Below are positions 55,901 to 61,400 of a stretch of 64,000 bases of DNA, piece by piece; position 1 is the stretch's first letter; every line of letters starts with the position of its first letter. Source of the stretch: Candidatus Omnitrophota bacterium (GTDB lineage Bacteria > Omnitrophota > Gorgyraeia > Gygaellales > Profunditerraquicolaceae); NCBI GenBank assembly GCA_026387265.1, contig JAPLLZ010000020.1, positions 5,413 to 69,412 on the forward strand, in the 5' to 3' direction. The notes under the pieces are model-generated. The model ran no database searches, had not been told where the DNA came from, and worked only from the letters and a program-made list of their open reading frames with translations. A program made the position numbers and the translations under genes.

Positions 55901-58459
55901 CATAATCAGGCTAAGCTTGGCGTAAACCGCGTACGCGCTCCGCCTGTTGGTATTAAGAATTTCATAGCTGCTTTAATCTTCGGCCTTTCCGCGTTAACTT
56001 TCCACAATGCATTAAATTTCAGTCAAATCAATTTAACCGTGCCGTCTATTGCTATTTCTATATTAGAAATAGCCGTGGCGGTTATTTTCATTAAAGGAGG
56101 TGTACCATGTGCCCTATCAAAATCGAAGATATCAGAATGGATCACATCGTTGATTACACGAAGAACTACTCTACCTTTGCAACAGCCCGCCAAAACAGTA
56201 ACAACCACCTTAGGATCTTTATGGTCAATGATTCCGGCAACGTTTATCTGCGCAATGGGCGCGGTGAAAGCTGGATGGAGATCCTGGGTAGCGCAGCCGA
56301 GAAAGTCCGGGATTGTATTGACCAAGCGCGCAGCTATGTTCCGGTCTACAAAGTTAACGCAGCTTACGGATACAACAACTAATTCCGGTGAAGACAAGTT
56401 TGTTTCTAACAAGGCGTCTACTCCTACCGTGGCAGGAAAGAGTACGCCGATTATTGCTGGCAAGGGTGTCCAGACTTCCCTCCAGAAGACGATCACTGGC
56501 ACCTTTGCCGCAATAAATAATAAGTTTAGCTCTTTAAAGCGGGCATTAGTTACCGCTTGCGTTATTGTAGTAATGTTGTTTGCCCTTACTGGTTGTGCTA
56601 CCAATAGTAATAATATTGTTAATGTTCAATATTCTGATACTGTCATGCAAGAGTATAGCGATAATTTGCAGGGTTGGGCTCAGGATCTAGCGTATACTAA
56701 AGTTGGCAAGACATTGAATTTTACTTCAGTTGATGCGCAAGAAAGAGTTATAGAAATTAATGATTATATTAATAACCTGTGGGATGAGATGTATAAGGCA
56801 GGAGAATTAGATGATTATTTGACTAAGAGAGGGGATTCTGCAGAAGCGGTTATCATAGGTAAAGGGTTATTGCTTATACAGCTTACTGATCCTCAGGTTT
56901 ATGAAATGCTTAAGGAAGAGAATGCTGCTTTTTATGTTAATCCGCAATTAGAAGGCAGCGGTGCGACCTACGGAACTAATTGGCTCGGAACGATGGGCCG
57001 GCCGATTGTCGAAGTACATGCTAAATATATTAACGATCCGTTTACCGTAGCGCGCATCTTAGACCATGAGTCAGTCCATGTAGAAGCCCTGCCGCAAAAC
57101 TTCTTCCAGGCAGTCGGTAAGTATAACGTGATTAAATTGTTGGTAGATATTGTTGCTAGTGTTCCTGTTGAAGAGACCAAGGCTTATGCCAGAGAGGCGG
57201 AGTTTGCAAGTAAATTTGGTATTATGCCGGAAAAGGGTAAAGAATTCTTTGATGAGATGGATTTAATGTTTGCTTATTCTGATGAGAAGCAAAGTTTCGT
57301 ATTAATGGGTATTGCTTATAACATGTGTGTTTATGCGCCTCTCTTTTTAATCGGGTTTTATCTTATCAGAAGAACAATCAGACGGGCGCACTCAGAATCT
57401 TATAATGCAATATATATCCCTAGTAGAAAAACCTACTATTATATTAATGAGGAAAATGAACAACTCTTTATGGATAGTGCCGATTATCTTAAGCGCCAGA
57501 ATGCCCGCGCTGTTGTTTTCTCCAAAAAGGTTTTATATGTTCCTAGTGAGGAAGTATATTACTTTATCAATGAGAGAAAGCTGGGATTCTTTATTAACAA
57601 TGCCAAATATTTTAAGAGCCAAGGATTTAATTTGCGTTATTTAGACGATCTGATAAGAAAGGCTGAAGAATACAATTGTGATCTTGATTGCGATGGCGTT
57701 GCTGTTCCGGCTTCTAATGGTACATTTGTAGTACGGGAATTAGAGAATCCTGAGTCGCATAATCTGCAGCCCATCGGTCAAATTATTGCTGCCTTACGTC
57801 ATCCTTCAGTAGCCGGTAGCTTCTTAAAGGTAGCCAGATTATCCTATAAAGTAGCCTGTTTCAAGCTTGCAGAACAGAATGGCATCAGAGGCGCTCCGGT
57901 AGTAAGACATATCCGCGCTTTCTTCTACGTATTAGCTAACTCTAAAACCGGCAGAAATGTTACTGCCGAATACATATCTTCCAAGCTTTCTGCTAAAGAT
58001 GCAACATTCCTCAATGCCCAATTAGATCTTCATGAAAAAGGTGAGACTGAAAGAGCGGGCCTAAAGGCTCAGGTAGAAGCGTTCAGAAAGAATAAGGATC
58101 AAGGTGAGGAATACTTAGCTTTTATCATTATCTCGACCCTTTCTGCTACAGCAGCTTTTATTGTATTCATGGTATTAAATTTAGGAGTCACTTTAAATAT
58201 TCATCCTGCTTTTGTAGCGGCAGCAGCAGCTATGGCTGTACCATTTCTTTTGTTTCCGGCTAAATTCCTTTTTAGTAATATAGCTACACTTATTTCTTCC
58301 AATATAGCTAATGCGCATAAAGCAAAACAAGTAAGGACGTCCTCATACATGAACACTGCTTTAGAAAAATCTTCATCTTTAACGGTAACTATACAGGTTC
58401 CGGTGTACAAAGAAACATTTGAACAAACAATCAAGCTTACTTTTGTGATGATGGCCTGA
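52967..58459 (+). CDS. Giant protein 2 (1830 aa)
   Basis: A GTG start overlaps the end of ORF1 by 17 nt. It contains an N/D/G low-complexity tract and three copies of an internal repeat. Several TM segments follow, then an internal lipoprotein-signal-like segment and an HExxH motif. C-terminal TM helices and the first beta-strand of a GT2 domain come last. One ~280 nt stretch (56100-56390) translates poorly in this frame. Confidence 0.6.
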   Translation: MGIADKSLGINEKNFNWMNGKNCFITIAPLAIRAALEAAKNKIEASGKLWTLRVAVQTYNDLVDEYNASHQDKLERLFVAKVAQSRIKELIDQEVSFEITENLGDSFHAILPFGYVENESSLSITAMNGNVADHRRTVNVADLDFSGTGVIVMVAESAKNLITKEESDAAEDGYRSTDDKPITGDTNVNTDTASKDTHNDNNDINNNNNNGGEGKGNGGNDGGNTGKDHANKANNVNNNDGKDGDSDLAGEKISQDLPETGKVAIEDAIVDSFNRITANNLSPPEAIFANLANTLRIVVNQLKEELSDLTRANTASLRNAIDVFNELIAILDNLANNPIVSLKYFLMLARREEEDIVTPLLKTLIGAIKDRGLNNLHGRYFRAARLIAHRYGLPYSSMVELANTFILLNETNDFINALKEEDFVRAELEARAKETEIASLATFAHNGGFVVMNNAAAYDRLNNVLNILNNSVGRYTSGVGVAVNVVKIKFGETRAGLNSIIGALSASVSGIFSRLGSLFVITPALAGQVESDETASTLLSSLTRASDELSQFPANLPTAKTVVNTVETAKSTNSQSITAENKTIASDILNNVLNILNNSVAKYVSNIKVTINAIKVGVTGAARVGLSSIANTLSSSLTNVSNKLSSSPISSLLTRLATVNESGIVNVGLSIVLAPAATVSLGIVAPIAVHLFGLVLGGVAALVTGFVLVAGLSKVINNSVSTHLAASTASLSASQDVDVNNADLTSATAKTATGTVETAKSINSQSVTVESKVTVSGILNNVLNILSNSVAKYVSNIKVTINAIKVGVTGAASPVAGSTTVPAASSTSLPASQAVNTNNANLTKLAAKVLNLVHSLIASIRNILNNLSSKSEIKGETSTKVQANILGNSISSLAPPVNGLIARFVKNAINQLINAIKGEENGHEKNNRNERGNSSNRYTVQNKTAPGNETGSGIRNAKFKEYINRKAGQLINWLRTILHNQAKLGVNRVRAPPVGIKNFIAALIFGLSALTFHNALNFSQINLTVPSIAISILEIAVAVIFIKGGVPCALSKSKISEWITSLITRRTTLPLQQPAKTVTTTLGSLWSMIPATFICAMGAVKAGWRSWVAQPRKSGIVLTKRAAMFRSTKLTQLTDTTTNSGEDKFVSNKASTPTVAGKSTPIIAGKGVQTSLQKTITGTFAAINNKFSSLKRALVTACVIVVMLFALTGCATNSNNIVNVQYSDTVMQEYSDNLQGWAQDLAYTKVGKTLNFTSVDAQERVIEINDYINNLWDEMYKAGELDDYLTKRGDSAEAVIIGKGLLLIQLTDPQVYEMLKEENAAFYVNPQLEGSGATYGTNWLGTMGRPIVEVHAKYINDPFTVARILDHESVHVEALPQNFFQAVGKYNVIKLLVDIVASVPVEETKAYAREAEFASKFGIMPEKGKEFFDEMDLMFAYSDEKQSFVLMGIAYNMCVYAPLFLIGFYLIRRTIRRAHSESYNAIYIPSRKTYYYINEENEQLFMDSADYLKRQNARAVVFSKKVLYVPSEEVYYFINERKLGFFINNAKYFKSQGFNLRYLDDLIRKAEEYNCDLDCDGVAVPASNGTFVVRELENPESHNLQPIGQIIAALRHPSVAGSFLKVARLSYKVACFKLAEQNGIRGAPVVRHIRAFFYVLANSKTGRNVTAEYISSKLSAKDATFLNAQLDLHEKGETERAGLKAQVEAFRKNKDQGEEYLAFIIISTLSATAAFIVFMVLNLGVTLNIHPAFVAAAAAMAVPFLLFPAKFLFSNIATLISSNIANAHKAKQVRTSSYMNTALEKSSSLTVTIQVPVYKETFEQTIKLTFVMMA

Positions 58460-61400: not shown

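What the first reader, a model, noticed from the sequence alone, without database searches (positions are those of the whole stretch)
58380..58470. A GT2 catalytic domain appears split across the ORF2/ORF3 frame change
The last residues of ORF2 in frame 2, SSLTVTIQVPVYKETFEQTIK, look like the first beta-strand and PxYNE-like start of a GT2 domain. They are preceded by TM helices, as in BcsA- and HAS-type synthases.

ORF3 in frame 1 carries the rest of the domain. The frame-1 codons just upstream of its ATG read ...NQAYFCDDGL, which is a DDG-like UDP-binding motif. A frame-1 TGA at 58420 cuts this stretch off. The two ORFs overlap as TGATG.

There are three possible explanations. The gene could be a recent frameshift pseudogene. 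Translation could use a frameshift or coupled re-initiation. The sequence could contain an indel error.
Basis: partly seen in the sequence, partly recalled or inferred. Interest (0 to 1): 0.55.

Follow-up and report, generated by a model that had tools for sequence, protein, structure and literature searches.

The report
Deletion-broken sugar-polymerase module in giant gene
A cellulose-synthase-like enzyme module inside a giant membrane-protein gene of an uncultured Omnitrophota bacterium is cut in two by a roughly 70-base, out-of-frame deletion, so this is an ordinary gene lesion or an assembly fault, not a new translation mechanism.

Summary
ORF2 (52967-58459, frame 2) ends with the first strand and the PxYxE motif of a GT2 domain. 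The CDDGL motif follows in frame 1, just before the ATG of ORF3 (58459). The two ORFs overlap as TGATG.

60 of 66 related loci carry 38-43 residues from PxY to DDG in one frame. The window has 20 residues plus a frame change. Against the closest relative (an Omnitrophota MAG, 57% identity), the only sizeable gap is 23 residues, and it sits exactly at the frame change. That equals 70 nt.

The missing piece is most of helix alpha-1 and strand beta-2 of the GT-A fold. A one-base error or a ribosomal frameshift therefore cannot restore the domain.

In four relatives the module lies inside a single open frame of more than 6,600-7,300 codons. ORF1, ORF2 and ORF3 are therefore probably pieces of one giant gene of at least 7,600 codons.

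All invariant residues downstream are intact. The lesion is therefore either recent or an artefact of the metagenome assembly. No slippery site, stimulatory RNA structure or conservation supports programmed recoding.

Interest is low. A c-di-GMP riboswitch upstream of the giant gene is a more notable side observation.

The parts
40882..40910 (+). Promoter-like site (TTGACA, 17-nt spacer, TG-TATATT) upstream of the giant gene
   Evidence: 11 of 12 consensus matches. This is a consensus match only.
40919..41007 (+). c-di-GMP-I-GGC riboswitch aptamer (Rfam RF03167) in the leader of the giant gene
   Evidence: 62.5 bits (gathering score 59), E=2.3e-12, full-length model match.
41015..41043 (+). 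Terminator-like hairpin plus T-run, directly after the aptamer (candidate expression platform)
   Evidence: This is a consensus match only.
41176..52983 (+). ORF1 (3,935 aa, frame 1). It is the first piece of the giant gene. It has a C39-peptidase-like domain near the N-terminus and several TM helices.
   Evidence: identical to NCBI MCX5693772.1 from a Candidatus Omnitrophica MAG contig of 87,977 nt.
52886..52965 (+). Perfect 21-nt tandem repeat, 3.8 copies (peptide AIGVSEK). The first frame change (frame 1 to frame 2) lies at its 3' end.
52967..58459 (+). ORF2 (1,830 aa, frame 2). It is the middle piece of the giant gene.
   Evidence: identical to NCBI MCX5693773.1 (hypothetical protein, locus tag NT014_01365).
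57756..58095 (+). Upstream copy of a ~340-nt direct repeat (117-aa domain) that flanks the GT2 module
   Evidence: 82% nt identity; 79% aa identity, E=4e-51.
58109..58276 (+). Two N-terminal TM helices of the synthase module (frame 2)
   Evidence: Hydropathy scan. They align with helices H16-41 and H44-72 of the P0004 model.
58382..58414 (+). GT-A strand beta-1 and the PxYxE motif (TVTIQVPVYKE, frame 2)
   Evidence: It aligns with strand E103-109 of the P0004 model.
58415..58443 (+). Remnant of helix alpha-1 (TFEQTIKLT, frame 2). It matches EFETTIRPT of L001.
58441..58444 (+). TTTT run where frame-2 homology ends and frame-1 homology begins. This is the inferred deletion junction, with about 55-70 nt missing.
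   Evidence: BLAST end points; codon-level comparison; 23-residue gap; block length in 60 loci.
58420..58422 (+). Frame-1 TGA that closes frame 1 upstream of the DDG motif
58444..58458 (+). CDDGL, the first Asp motif (nucleotide binding) of the GT2 domain. It is in frame 1, upstream of the ORF3 ATG, and is not part of either ORF as called.
58457..58461 (+). TGATG stop/start overlap of ORF2 and ORF3
58459..64000 (+). ORF3 (more than 1,847 aa, frame 1; it runs off the window). It carries the rest of the GT2 domain, the C-terminal TM bundle and further domains.
58819..59478 (+). PF13632 Glyco_trans_2_3 match. It includes DKD (58819-58839), SED (59101-59112) and the QMTKY variant of QxxRW (59224-59238).
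59356..59898 (+). Five hydrophobic segments forming the C-terminal TM part of the synthase module
   Evidence: They align with the TM helices of the P0004 model.
59972..60308 (+). Downstream copy of the ~340-nt direct repeat that flanks the GT2 module

Best explanation
ORF1, ORF2 and ORF3 are pieces of one giant membrane-protein gene, at least 7,600 codons long, of an uncultured Omnitrophota bacterium.

The gene contains a BcsA/CesA/HAS-like processive GT2 synthase module. The module has two TM helices, a GT-A catalytic domain and a C-terminal TM bundle. In intact relatives this module most likely polymerises a sugar nucleotide and threads the polymer through its own membrane channel.

In this genome, as assembled, an out-of-frame deletion of about 70 nt (23 codons plus 1 nt relative to the closest relative) has occurred. 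Its junction is in the TTTT run at 58441-58444. It removes the C-terminal two-thirds of helix alpha-1, the following loop and strand beta-2. It also shifts the frame.

The consequences follow directly.
- Translation from upstream stops at TGA 58457.
- The DDG nucleotide-binding motif belongs to no ORF.
- ORF3 can at best be made by termination-reinitiation at TGATG, as an N-terminally truncated protein.
- The glycosyltransferase activity of the module is therefore lost.

The lesion is recent, because everything else is still intact.

Shown: the split, the missing segment, its structural identity, the single-ORF state in relatives, and the retention of all downstream invariant residues.

Inferred: that the deletion is a real mutation rather than an assembly fault, that activity is lost, and what the module does in relatives.
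For: - Frame-2 homology to relatives runs to 58444, and frame-1 homology starts at 58444. L001 residues 3453-3475 have no counterpart.
- The window/L001 alignment (57% identity over 619 aa) has a single large gap of 23 residues, exactly at the frame change. The six closest database homologues show the same gap.
- 60 of 66 related loci have a PxY...DDG[LI] block of 38-43 residues in one frame. The window has 20 residues plus a frameshift.
- AlphaFold model of the intact homologue P0004 (pLDDT 90.4): beta-1 is E103-109, alpha-1 is H114-132, beta-2 is E137-143, and DDG is 143-145. The gap therefore removes most of alpha-1 and all of beta-2.
- The best structural matches are BcsA (4p00, E=4e-14), cyclic-glucan synthase, hyaluronan synthase and plant CesA. 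A sequence profile also hits plant CesA at E=5.5e-7.
- L001, L003, L004 and L060 carry the module inside stop-free frames of 6,600-7,305 codons that span the whole locus.
- All 19 invariant columns, and every near-invariant column downstream of the ATG, are retained in ORF3. ORF2 and ORF3 each stay open for about 5.5 kb.
- The missing segment is encoded nowhere else in the window.
- There is no slippery heptamer. The downstream RNA folds no better than shuffled sequence (z=-0.8). There is no promoter or terminator signal at the junction.
- The other 41 kb of the window shows tightly packed, unbroken genes.
Against: - The sequence comes from a metagenome-assembled genome, and reads could not be inspected. 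A local assembly or consensus fault cannot be excluded.
- The same giant gene has a second frame change at the edge of a perfect tandem repeat, a typical trouble spot for assemblers.
- The perfect preservation of all other conserved residues is what an artefact would also give.
- The closest relative available is only 57% identical. The ancestral sequence at the junction, and so the exact size of the deletion, is inferred.
- The database annotates ORF2 as an ordinary protein.
Confidence: 0.57

Rival explanations
1. Assembly or consensus artefact. The real genome carries an intact, continuous GT2 module and a continuous giant ORF. The ~70-nt gap and the frame change arose when a metagenome assembler or binning consensus collapsed or mis-joined reads, for example from co-existing strains.
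For: - The source is a MAG contig.
- There are two frame changes (1 to 2 to 1) within one giant gene, while the other 41 kb of the window has none.
- The first frame change abuts a perfect 21-nt tandem repeat.
- Every invariant residue outside the gap is intact.
- A 10-nt exact repeat, TTACTTTTGT, occurs at the junction and again 149 nt downstream. It could mislead a de Bruijn graph only if k were very small, so this is weak support.
Against: - Sequencing errors are usually 1-2 nt. A clean loss of about 70 nt without a repeat of read-scale length at the junction is not a typical short-read artefact.
- The junction keeps good codon-level homology on both sides, as expected for a simple deletion allele. 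Such an allele could be real in the population.
Confidence: 0.28
2. Natural two-gene arrangement with functional products. ORF2 and ORF3 are translated separately (ORF3 by termination-reinitiation at TGATG). The remnant module still works, either by association of the two fragments or in a non-catalytic role such as a channel or scaffold.
For: - The TGATG overlap is a classic coupling signal.
- ORF3 stays open for more than 5.5 kb with all downstream motifs intact.
- NCBI annotates ORF1 and ORF2 as separate proteins.
- Some more distant relatives (L005, L006) have the module in ORFs flanked by other large ORFs.
Against: - Helix alpha-1 and strand beta-2 are encoded nowhere.
- The DDG motif lies in neither ORF.
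- A GT-A Rossmann-like core cannot form without them (established GT-A fold knowledge; model).
- No relative shows the split.
- There is no Shine-Dalgarno-like sequence before the ATG.
Confidence: 0.07
3. Programmed recoding. A -1 ribosomal frameshift on the T run (C TTT TGT), or translational bypass, joins ORF2 and ORF3 into one polypeptide.
For: tRNA-Phe on UUU (58442-58444) could re-pair with UUU at 58441-58443. This would give ...KLTF-CDDGLM..., which is the homologous join.
Against: - There is no X XXY YYZ heptamer in the 58423-58456 overlap zone.
- The downstream 100 nt fold no better than shuffles (z=-0.80).
- None of the 60 informative relatives has a frame change here.
- Even a perfect shift yields a domain lacking 18-23 conserved residues.
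Confidence: 0.03

Closest known systems
Membrane-integrated processive GT2 synthases: bacterial cellulose synthase BcsA (PDB 4P00/4HG6), plant CesA, Chlorella-virus and vertebrate hyaluronan synthases, cyclic beta-1,2-glucan synthase Cgs (8RF9)
   Same: - N-terminal TM helices, a GT-A domain with DDG, DxD (here DKD) and a TED-like (SED) motif, followed by a TM bundle.
- These structures are the best structural matches of the intact homologue model.
- A family profile hits plant CesA at E=5.5e-7.
- Like Cgs, the module is embedded in a much larger multidomain protein.
   Different: - Sequence identity to these structures is only 9-14%.
- QxxRW is replaced family-wide by QxTKY / KYAYG.
- No PilZ domain was seen.
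- The product is unknown.
- In this window the domain is broken and lacks alpha-1 and beta-2.
Pfam PF13632 Glyco_trans_2_3 proteins of the subfamily found here (uncharacterised bacterial, algal and fungal 'glycosyltransferase 2-like' proteins)
   Same: ORF3 scores 89 bits against PF13632. It shares all 19 invariant columns of a 60-member alignment.
   Different: Family members carry the whole domain in one frame. The window copy is split and shortened.
Giant ORFs of Omnitrophota ('Archaeovorin'-type giant proteins: West-Roberts et al. 2023, bioRxiv 10.1101/2023.11.21.568195; Seymour et al. 2023, PMC10066038)
   Same: - Omnitrophota origin.
- At least 7,600 codons in total.
- Many TM helices.
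- A C39-peptidase-like domain.
- A glycosyltransferase domain.
- Relatives have uninterrupted frames longer than 20 kb.
   Different: - Those papers list GT5 and GT1 as the prevalent GT domains. A search of their text found no mention of GT2 ('GT2', 'family 2') or cellulose synthase; 'riboswitch' and 'frameshift' were searched only in the West-Roberts preprint and 'c-di-GMP' only in Seymour et al., all without result.
- Here the gene is in three frames as assembled.
Frameshift or deletion pseudogenes, as flagged routinely in prokaryotic genome annotation
   Same: An out-of-frame internal deletion splits a conserved domain between two adjacent ORFs. Relatives are intact.
   Different: Apart from two lesions, the 23-kb gene shows no further decay. 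Pseudogene status as opposed to assembly error remains unproven.

Membership tests
Processive membrane GT2 synthase (BcsA/CesA/HAS-like; Pfam PF13632, GT-A clan) | Significant match to the family HMM | tested here: met
   ORF3 residues 121-340 match PF13632 at E=5e-25, 89 bits against a cut-off of 27.
Processive membrane GT2 synthase (BcsA/CesA/HAS-like; Pfam PF13632, GT-A clan) | Complete N-terminal GT-A unit (beta-1, alpha-1, beta-2, DDG) on one polypeptide | tested here: not met
   Beta-1 is in ORF2 (frame 2). DDG is in frame 1 outside any ORF. 18-23 residues (alpha-1 C-terminus and beta-2) are absent.
Processive membrane GT2 synthase (BcsA/CesA/HAS-like; Pfam PF13632, GT-A clan) | DxD metal-binding motif and TED-type catalytic base | tested here: met
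   LLLDKDS (D124, D126) and VSED (S216-D218) of ORF3 lie on invariant columns.
Processive membrane GT2 synthase (BcsA/CesA/HAS-like; Pfam PF13632, GT-A clan) | Q(Q/R)xRW acceptor-binding motif | tested here: not met
   The window has QMTKY and L001 has QNTKY. The family consensus is K-Y-A-Y-G, with Tyr in place of Trp. This is a family-wide variant, not a defect of this copy.
Processive membrane GT2 synthase (BcsA/CesA/HAS-like; Pfam PF13632, GT-A clan) | TM helices on both sides of the GT domain forming a translocation channel; overall fold like BcsA | tested here: met
   Two hydrophobic helices lie before the domain and five after it. The P0004 model (pLDDT 90.4) has BcsA 4p00 as its top match at E=4e-14. 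The fold was tested on a homologue, not on the window protein. The model of the merged window sequence was unusable (pLDDT 46).
Processive membrane GT2 synthase (BcsA/CesA/HAS-like; Pfam PF13632, GT-A clan) | Polymerising glycosyltransferase activity | not testable with these tools
   This needs biochemistry.
Programmed -1 ribosomal frameshift site | Slippery heptamer X XXY YYZ in the zone where the frames overlap | tested here: not met
   Reading 58423-58456 in frame 2 gives no such heptamer, only a T4 run.
Programmed -1 ribosomal frameshift site | Downstream stimulatory RNA structure | tested here: not met
   58446-58545 has an MFE of -19.3 kcal/mol and z=-0.80. 41 of 200 shuffles fold as well.
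Programmed -1 ribosomal frameshift site | Frame change conserved in relatives | tested here: not met
   60 of 66 related loci have the block in one frame, and none shows a frame change. Four relatives are open for more than 6,600 codons.
Omnitrophota giant ORFs (>=20 kb; Seymour 2023, West-Roberts 2023) | One uninterrupted ORF of at least 20 kb (about 7,000 aa) | tested here: not met
   There are three stop-free stretches of 3,936, 1,833 and more than 1,859 codons in frames 1, 2 and 1. The sum is at least 7,600 codons. Relatives L001, L003 and L004 exceed 7,000 codons in one frame.
Omnitrophota giant ORFs (>=20 kb; Seymour 2023, West-Roberts 2023) | Omnitrophota origin, many TM helices, C39 peptidase and glycosyltransferase domains | tested here: met
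   NCBI names and relatives place it in Omnitrophota. PF03412 scores 23.2 bits against a cut-off of 22. The SecA-DEAD-like domain is inconclusive (ResIII, 17.9 bits, below cut-off).
c-di-GMP-I riboswitch, GGC variant (Rfam RF03167) | Covariance-model score above the gathering threshold, in a 5' leader with an expression platform | tested here: met
   62.5 bits against a threshold of 59, E=2e-12, full-length match. A promoter-like site lies 9 nt upstream and a terminator-like hairpin 8 nt downstream, 169 nt before the ATG at 41176. Ligand binding was not tested.

The most novel reading that the evidence does not exclude
The breaks are not decay but natural fission of a giant gene. One transcript, controlled by a c-di-GMP riboswitch, yields ORF1, ORF2 and ORF3 as separate polypeptides, with ORF3 made by termination-reinitiation at TGATG. 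The truncated synthase remnant (TM bundle plus partial GT-A) is retained for a non-catalytic role such as a channel or scaffold. This would give a view of how giant Omnitrophota proteins are built from, or broken into, modules.
Probability: 0.07. Interest if true: 0.55.

Novelty: new member of a known kind. Interest (0 to 1): 0.25.

Why it matters
In itself this matters little. It is one more gene broken by a deletion, or mis-assembled, and it should be flagged as such so that nobody counts a working polysaccharide synthase in this genome.

The context gives it some value.
- It shows that BcsA-like GT2 synthase modules sit inside giant ORFs of more than 6,600-7,300 codons in Omnitrophota and in MAGs labelled Planctomycetia. 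The giant-gene papers consulted do not mention this GT class.
- The giant gene here is preceded by a c-di-GMP-type riboswitch. This links these enigmatic giant proteins to a known second-messenger circuit that also controls cellulose synthesis.

If the lesion is real, it also shows that such giant genes can lose modules while the rest stays open.

Tried and rejected
- Closer orthologues. Two scans of metagenome contigs found nothing. The genome scan gave 57% identity at best. The exhaustive representative search gave only a 52%-identical fragment lacking the N-terminus (P0220). The contig of a related MAG (GCA_028712375.1, TadA 94% identical) ends before the giant gene.
- Look-up of the source contig. 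The look-up of encoding contigs has no record for this MAG.
- Inference from annotation. I first took the absence of ORF2 and ORF3 from the first protein search to mean a pseudogene annotation. This was wrong for ORF2, which is MCX5693773.1. That search returned nothing longer than about 1,200 aa. ORF3 is also absent from the exhaustive search. That is compatible with there being no protein record for it, but it is not proof.
- Structure of the merged window sequence. With a 7-sequence alignment, pLDDT was 45.7, which is unusable. I replaced it with a model of the intact homologue P0004.
- Profile search of PDB sequences with the 7-sequence alignment found no hit. The 60-sequence profile found plant CesA.
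- Generic Pfam GT2 models do not reach beta-1 in the merged sequence or in L001.
- A search for the missing 23 residues elsewhere in the window gave only chance-level hits. The frame-1 peptide GNYTGSGVQRN (58384-58419) resembles the alpha-1/beta-2 loop of L003. I rejected it because the same bases encode the strongly conserved beta-1 in frame 2 and the match adds no score.
- The 10-nt repeat TTACTTTTGT at the junction and 149 nt downstream is judged coincidental. A simple deletion explains both flanks at codon level.
- An alternative genetic code is rejected. TGA ends 5 of 30 ordinary ORFs.
- There is no promoter or terminator at the junction.

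
Full report
**What is in the sequence**

The window is a bacterial chromosome segment with about 39% GC and almost all genes on the + strand.
- It carries glycosyltransferase and radical-SAM genes and a Tad-type pilus cluster.
- Its proteins are identical to records of an NCBI metagenome-assembled genome named Candidatus Omnitrophica bacterium, on a contig of 87,977 nt.

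From 41176 to the end of the window there are three long stop-free stretches:

| Stretch | Frame | Codons |
|---|---|---|
| 41173-52980 | 1 | 3,936 |
| 52958-58456 | 2 | 1,833 |
| 58423-63999 | 1 | more than 1,859 (runs off the window) |

The finding concerns the second junction.

**Check of the observation**

- ORF2 ends ...SSLTVTIQVPVYKETFEQTIKLTFVMMA, with TGA at 58457-58459.
- Frame 1 has a TGA at 58420-58422 and then reads TNNQAYFCDDGL.
- The ATG of ORF3 follows at 58459-58461, so the two ORFs overlap as TGATG.
- ORF3 residues 121-340 match Pfam PF13632 (Glyco_trans_2_3) at E=5e-25. That model covers only the second half of a GT2 domain, so the first half must lie upstream.

**Is the ORF2 tail really the start of the domain?**

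Yes.
- A database search with a merged translation found 95 homologues, all carrying PF13632.
- Alignment shows that TVTIQVPVYKE aligns with the conserved ...T(I/V)x(I/V)P(V/I)YxE strand-plus-motif, and that CDDGLM aligns with (C/S)DDGLM.
- The closest relative found anywhere is locus L001, an Omnitrophota MAG. BLASTP against its translation matches the frame-2 stretch up to F (58442-58444) at E=1e-18. It matches the frame-1 stretch from C (58444-58446) at 60% identity over 502 residues.
- Only CDDGL is homologous in frame 1.
- Generic Pfam models do not see the short ORF2 tail. The equivalent block of homologue P0002 does match PF00535 positions 1-36.

**The new fact: a piece is missing**

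- In the window/L001 alignment (57% identity over 619 residues), the only gap longer than three residues inside the module is 23 residues, exactly at the frame change. L001 residues 3453-3475 have no counterpart.
- The six nearest database homologues show the same gap.
- Across the 66 related loci retrieved from species-representative genomes, 60 have a PxY...DDG(L/I) block in a single frame. The block is 41 residues in 51 loci, 42 in 6, 38 in 2 and 43 in 1. The window has 20 residues and a frame change.
- Between the E of PVYKE and the C of CDDGL the window has 29 nt, where relatives have 81-99 nt. About 55-70 nt are therefore missing (70 nt against L001), always 1 modulo 3.
- At codon level, the window's ACA ATC AAG CTT ACT TT matches L001's ACA ATC AGG CCT ACC TT. 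The window's T TGT GAT GAT GGC CTG ATG matches L001's T TGC GAC GAT GGC TTG ATG.
- Both flanks are therefore explained by one simple deletion whose junction lies in the TTTT run at 58441-58444.
- The missing residues are encoded nowhere else in the window.

**What the missing piece is**

A model of the merged window sequence with a shallow alignment was unusable (pLDDT 46). A model of the intact 640-residue homologue P0004, built with a 60-sequence alignment, is confident (pLDDT 90.4, pTM 0.92). Its elements are:

| Element | Residues in P0004 |
|---|---|
| Two N-terminal TM helices | H16-41, H44-72 |
| Strand beta-1 | 103-109 |
| Helix alpha-1 | 114-132 |
| Strand beta-2 | 137-143 |
| DDG | 143-145 |
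| Rest of the GT-A domain, then a helical TM bundle | downstream |

By alignment, the window's gap removes the C-terminal two-thirds of alpha-1, the loop and beta-2.

Foldseek against the PDB puts BcsA first (4p00, E=4e-14). It is followed by E. coli BcsA, cyclic-glucan synthase Cgs, Chlorella-virus hyaluronan synthase and plant CesAs. A sequence profile also reaches plant CesA at E=5.5e-7.

The family differs from those enzymes in having QxTKY / KYAYG in place of QxxRW.

**Context: one giant gene**

- In L001, L003, L004 and L060 the module lies inside a stop-free frame that spans the whole retrieved locus, at 7,305, 7,200, 7,027 and 6,600 codons.
- Giant ORFs longer than 20 kb with many TM helices, C39 peptidase domains and glycosyltransferase domains are known in Omnitrophota (PMC10066038; bioRxiv 10.1101/2023.11.21.568195).
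- The window's ORF1 has a C39-like domain, and all three pieces have TM segments.
- The first junction also looks like a frame change inside coding sequence. A perfect 21-nt repeat, 3.8 copies (AIGVSEK), ends at 52965. ORF1 stops 16 nt later. Degenerate units of the same repeat (VGIADK, SLGINEK) continue in frame 2.

ORF1, ORF2 and ORF3 are therefore best read as one gene of at least 7,600 codons, interrupted twice. NCBI annotates ORF1 and ORF2 as separate proteins (MCX5693772.1 and MCX5693773.1). ORF3 did not appear in the exhaustive protein search. That is compatible with its having no protein record, but does not prove it.

**Choosing between explanations**

Programmed frameshifting is very unlikely.
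- There is no X XXY YYZ heptamer in the overlap zone.
- The downstream 100 nt fold no better than shuffled sequence (z=-0.8).
- No relative has the frame change.
- Even a perfect -1 slip on the T run would give a domain lacking 18-23 conserved residues.

A one-base sequencing error is excluded for the same reason.

A functional split enzyme is unlikely. Alpha-1 and beta-2 are absent, and DDG lies in neither ORF.

Two readings remain: a real, recent deletion, or a local fault of the metagenome assembly. Both predict what is seen.
- All 19 invariant columns and all downstream near-invariant columns are intact in ORF3.
- There are no further stops over 11 kb.

For a real lesion:
- The loss is clean and about 70 nt long, with good homology on both flanks.
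- No read-scale repeat lies at the junction.
- The other 41 kb of the window is unbroken.

For an artefact:
- The sequence comes from a MAG.
- A second frame change lies next to a perfect tandem repeat.

| Explanation | Confidence |
|---|---|
| Real deletion | about 0.57 |
| Assembly artefact | about 0.28 |
| Functional split | about 0.07 |
| Recoding | about 0.03 |

**Mechanism, with its status**

- Shown: the module is split, a defined structural element is missing, and relatives are single-frame.
- Inferred from family knowledge: in relatives the module is a processive synthase that couples polymerisation to translocation through its own TM channel. In this genome it is catalytically dead.
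- Inferred: ORF3 may still be translated by termination-reinitiation at TGATG, since no Shine-Dalgarno-like sequence precedes the ATG. The product would be an N-terminally truncated protein that keeps its downstream domains.

**Side observations**

- A near-consensus promoter-like site (40882-40910), a c-di-GMP-I-GGC riboswitch aptamer (40919-41007; 62.5 bits, E=2e-12) and a terminator-like hairpin (41015-41043) precede the giant gene's ATG at 41176.
- One homologue of the GT2 family is fused to EAL and GGDEF domains (P0026). A c-di-GMP link to this synthase family may therefore be more general.
- A ~340-nt direct repeat (82% nt identity, 79% aa identity) flanks the GT2 module in the window and is absent from L001.

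**Verdict**

In kind it is ordinary: a deletion-type lesion or an assembly fault in one module of a known class of giant genes. Interest is 0.25.

Noticed in passing
window 40882-41043 (+), upstream of ATG 41176: A promoter-like site (11 of 12 consensus matches), a c-di-GMP-I-GGC riboswitch aptamer (RF03167, 62.5 bits, E=2e-12) and a terminator-like hairpin lie in series in the leader of the giant gene. This suggests second-messenger control of a gene of at least 7,600 codons that contains a cellulose-synthase-like module.
   Followed up: partly
window 52886-52983: A perfect 21-nt tandem repeat, 3.8 copies (AIGVSEK), ends at 52965. ORF1 stops 16 nt later. Degenerate units of the same repeat (VGIADK, SLGINEK) continue in frame 2 as the start of ORF2. 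This looks like a second frame change inside one coding sequence. NCBI annotates the two sides as separate proteins (MCX5693772.1 and MCX5693773.1).
   Followed up: partly
window 57756-58095 and 59972-60308: A ~340-nt direct repeat (82% nt identity; 117 aa at 79% identity, no Pfam match) brackets the whole GT2 synthase module. It is absent from the closest relative L001. It could allow excision or duplication of the module by homologous recombination.
   Followed up: partly
loci L001, L003, L004, L060 (whole loci); proteins P0233, P0246, P0225: The same BcsA-like GT2 module is embedded in stop-free frames of 6,600-7,305 codons in two Omnitrophota MAGs (L001, L003) and two MAGs labelled Planctomycetia (L004, L060). 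It also occurs in database proteins of 2,000-5,100 aa. The giant-gene papers consulted do not mention GT2 or cellulose-synthase-like modules.
   Followed up: partly
proteins P0014-P0020, P0030 and P0026: Members of this GT2 subfamily in Oscillospiraceae and related Firmicutes are fused to protein-kinase domains. One member (P0026) is fused to EAL and GGDEF c-di-GMP turnover domains.
   Followed up: no
window 24917-28700: The Tad-pilus cluster has unusual fusions. A secretin carries a C-terminal TonB_C domain (24917-26539). A TadA/CpaF ATPase carries an N-terminal ParA/MinD-like domain (26541-28700). The latter is conserved at 72-94% identity in many Omnitrophota MAGs.
   Followed up: no
window 62416-62625: An 84-nt unit is repeated at 126-nt spacing in ORF3 (79% identity). 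It encodes a Trp/Tyr-rich motif, GDWVxxxxxVxYxAWxYYGxTDPTGPAP.
   Followed up: no
window 58437-58446 and 58586-58595: The exact 10-nt repeat TTACTTTTGT occurs at the deletion junction (LTF in frame 2) and 149 nt downstream (ITFV of the next strand, frame 1). I judged it coincidental.
   Followed up: partly
window 54322-55509: ORF2 contains several diverged internal direct repeats of 109-174 nt at spacings of 294-570 nt (67-90% identity). They encode Asn/Ser/Val-rich repeats such as ILNNVLNILNNSVAKYVSNIKVTINAIKVGVTGAA.
   Followed up: no
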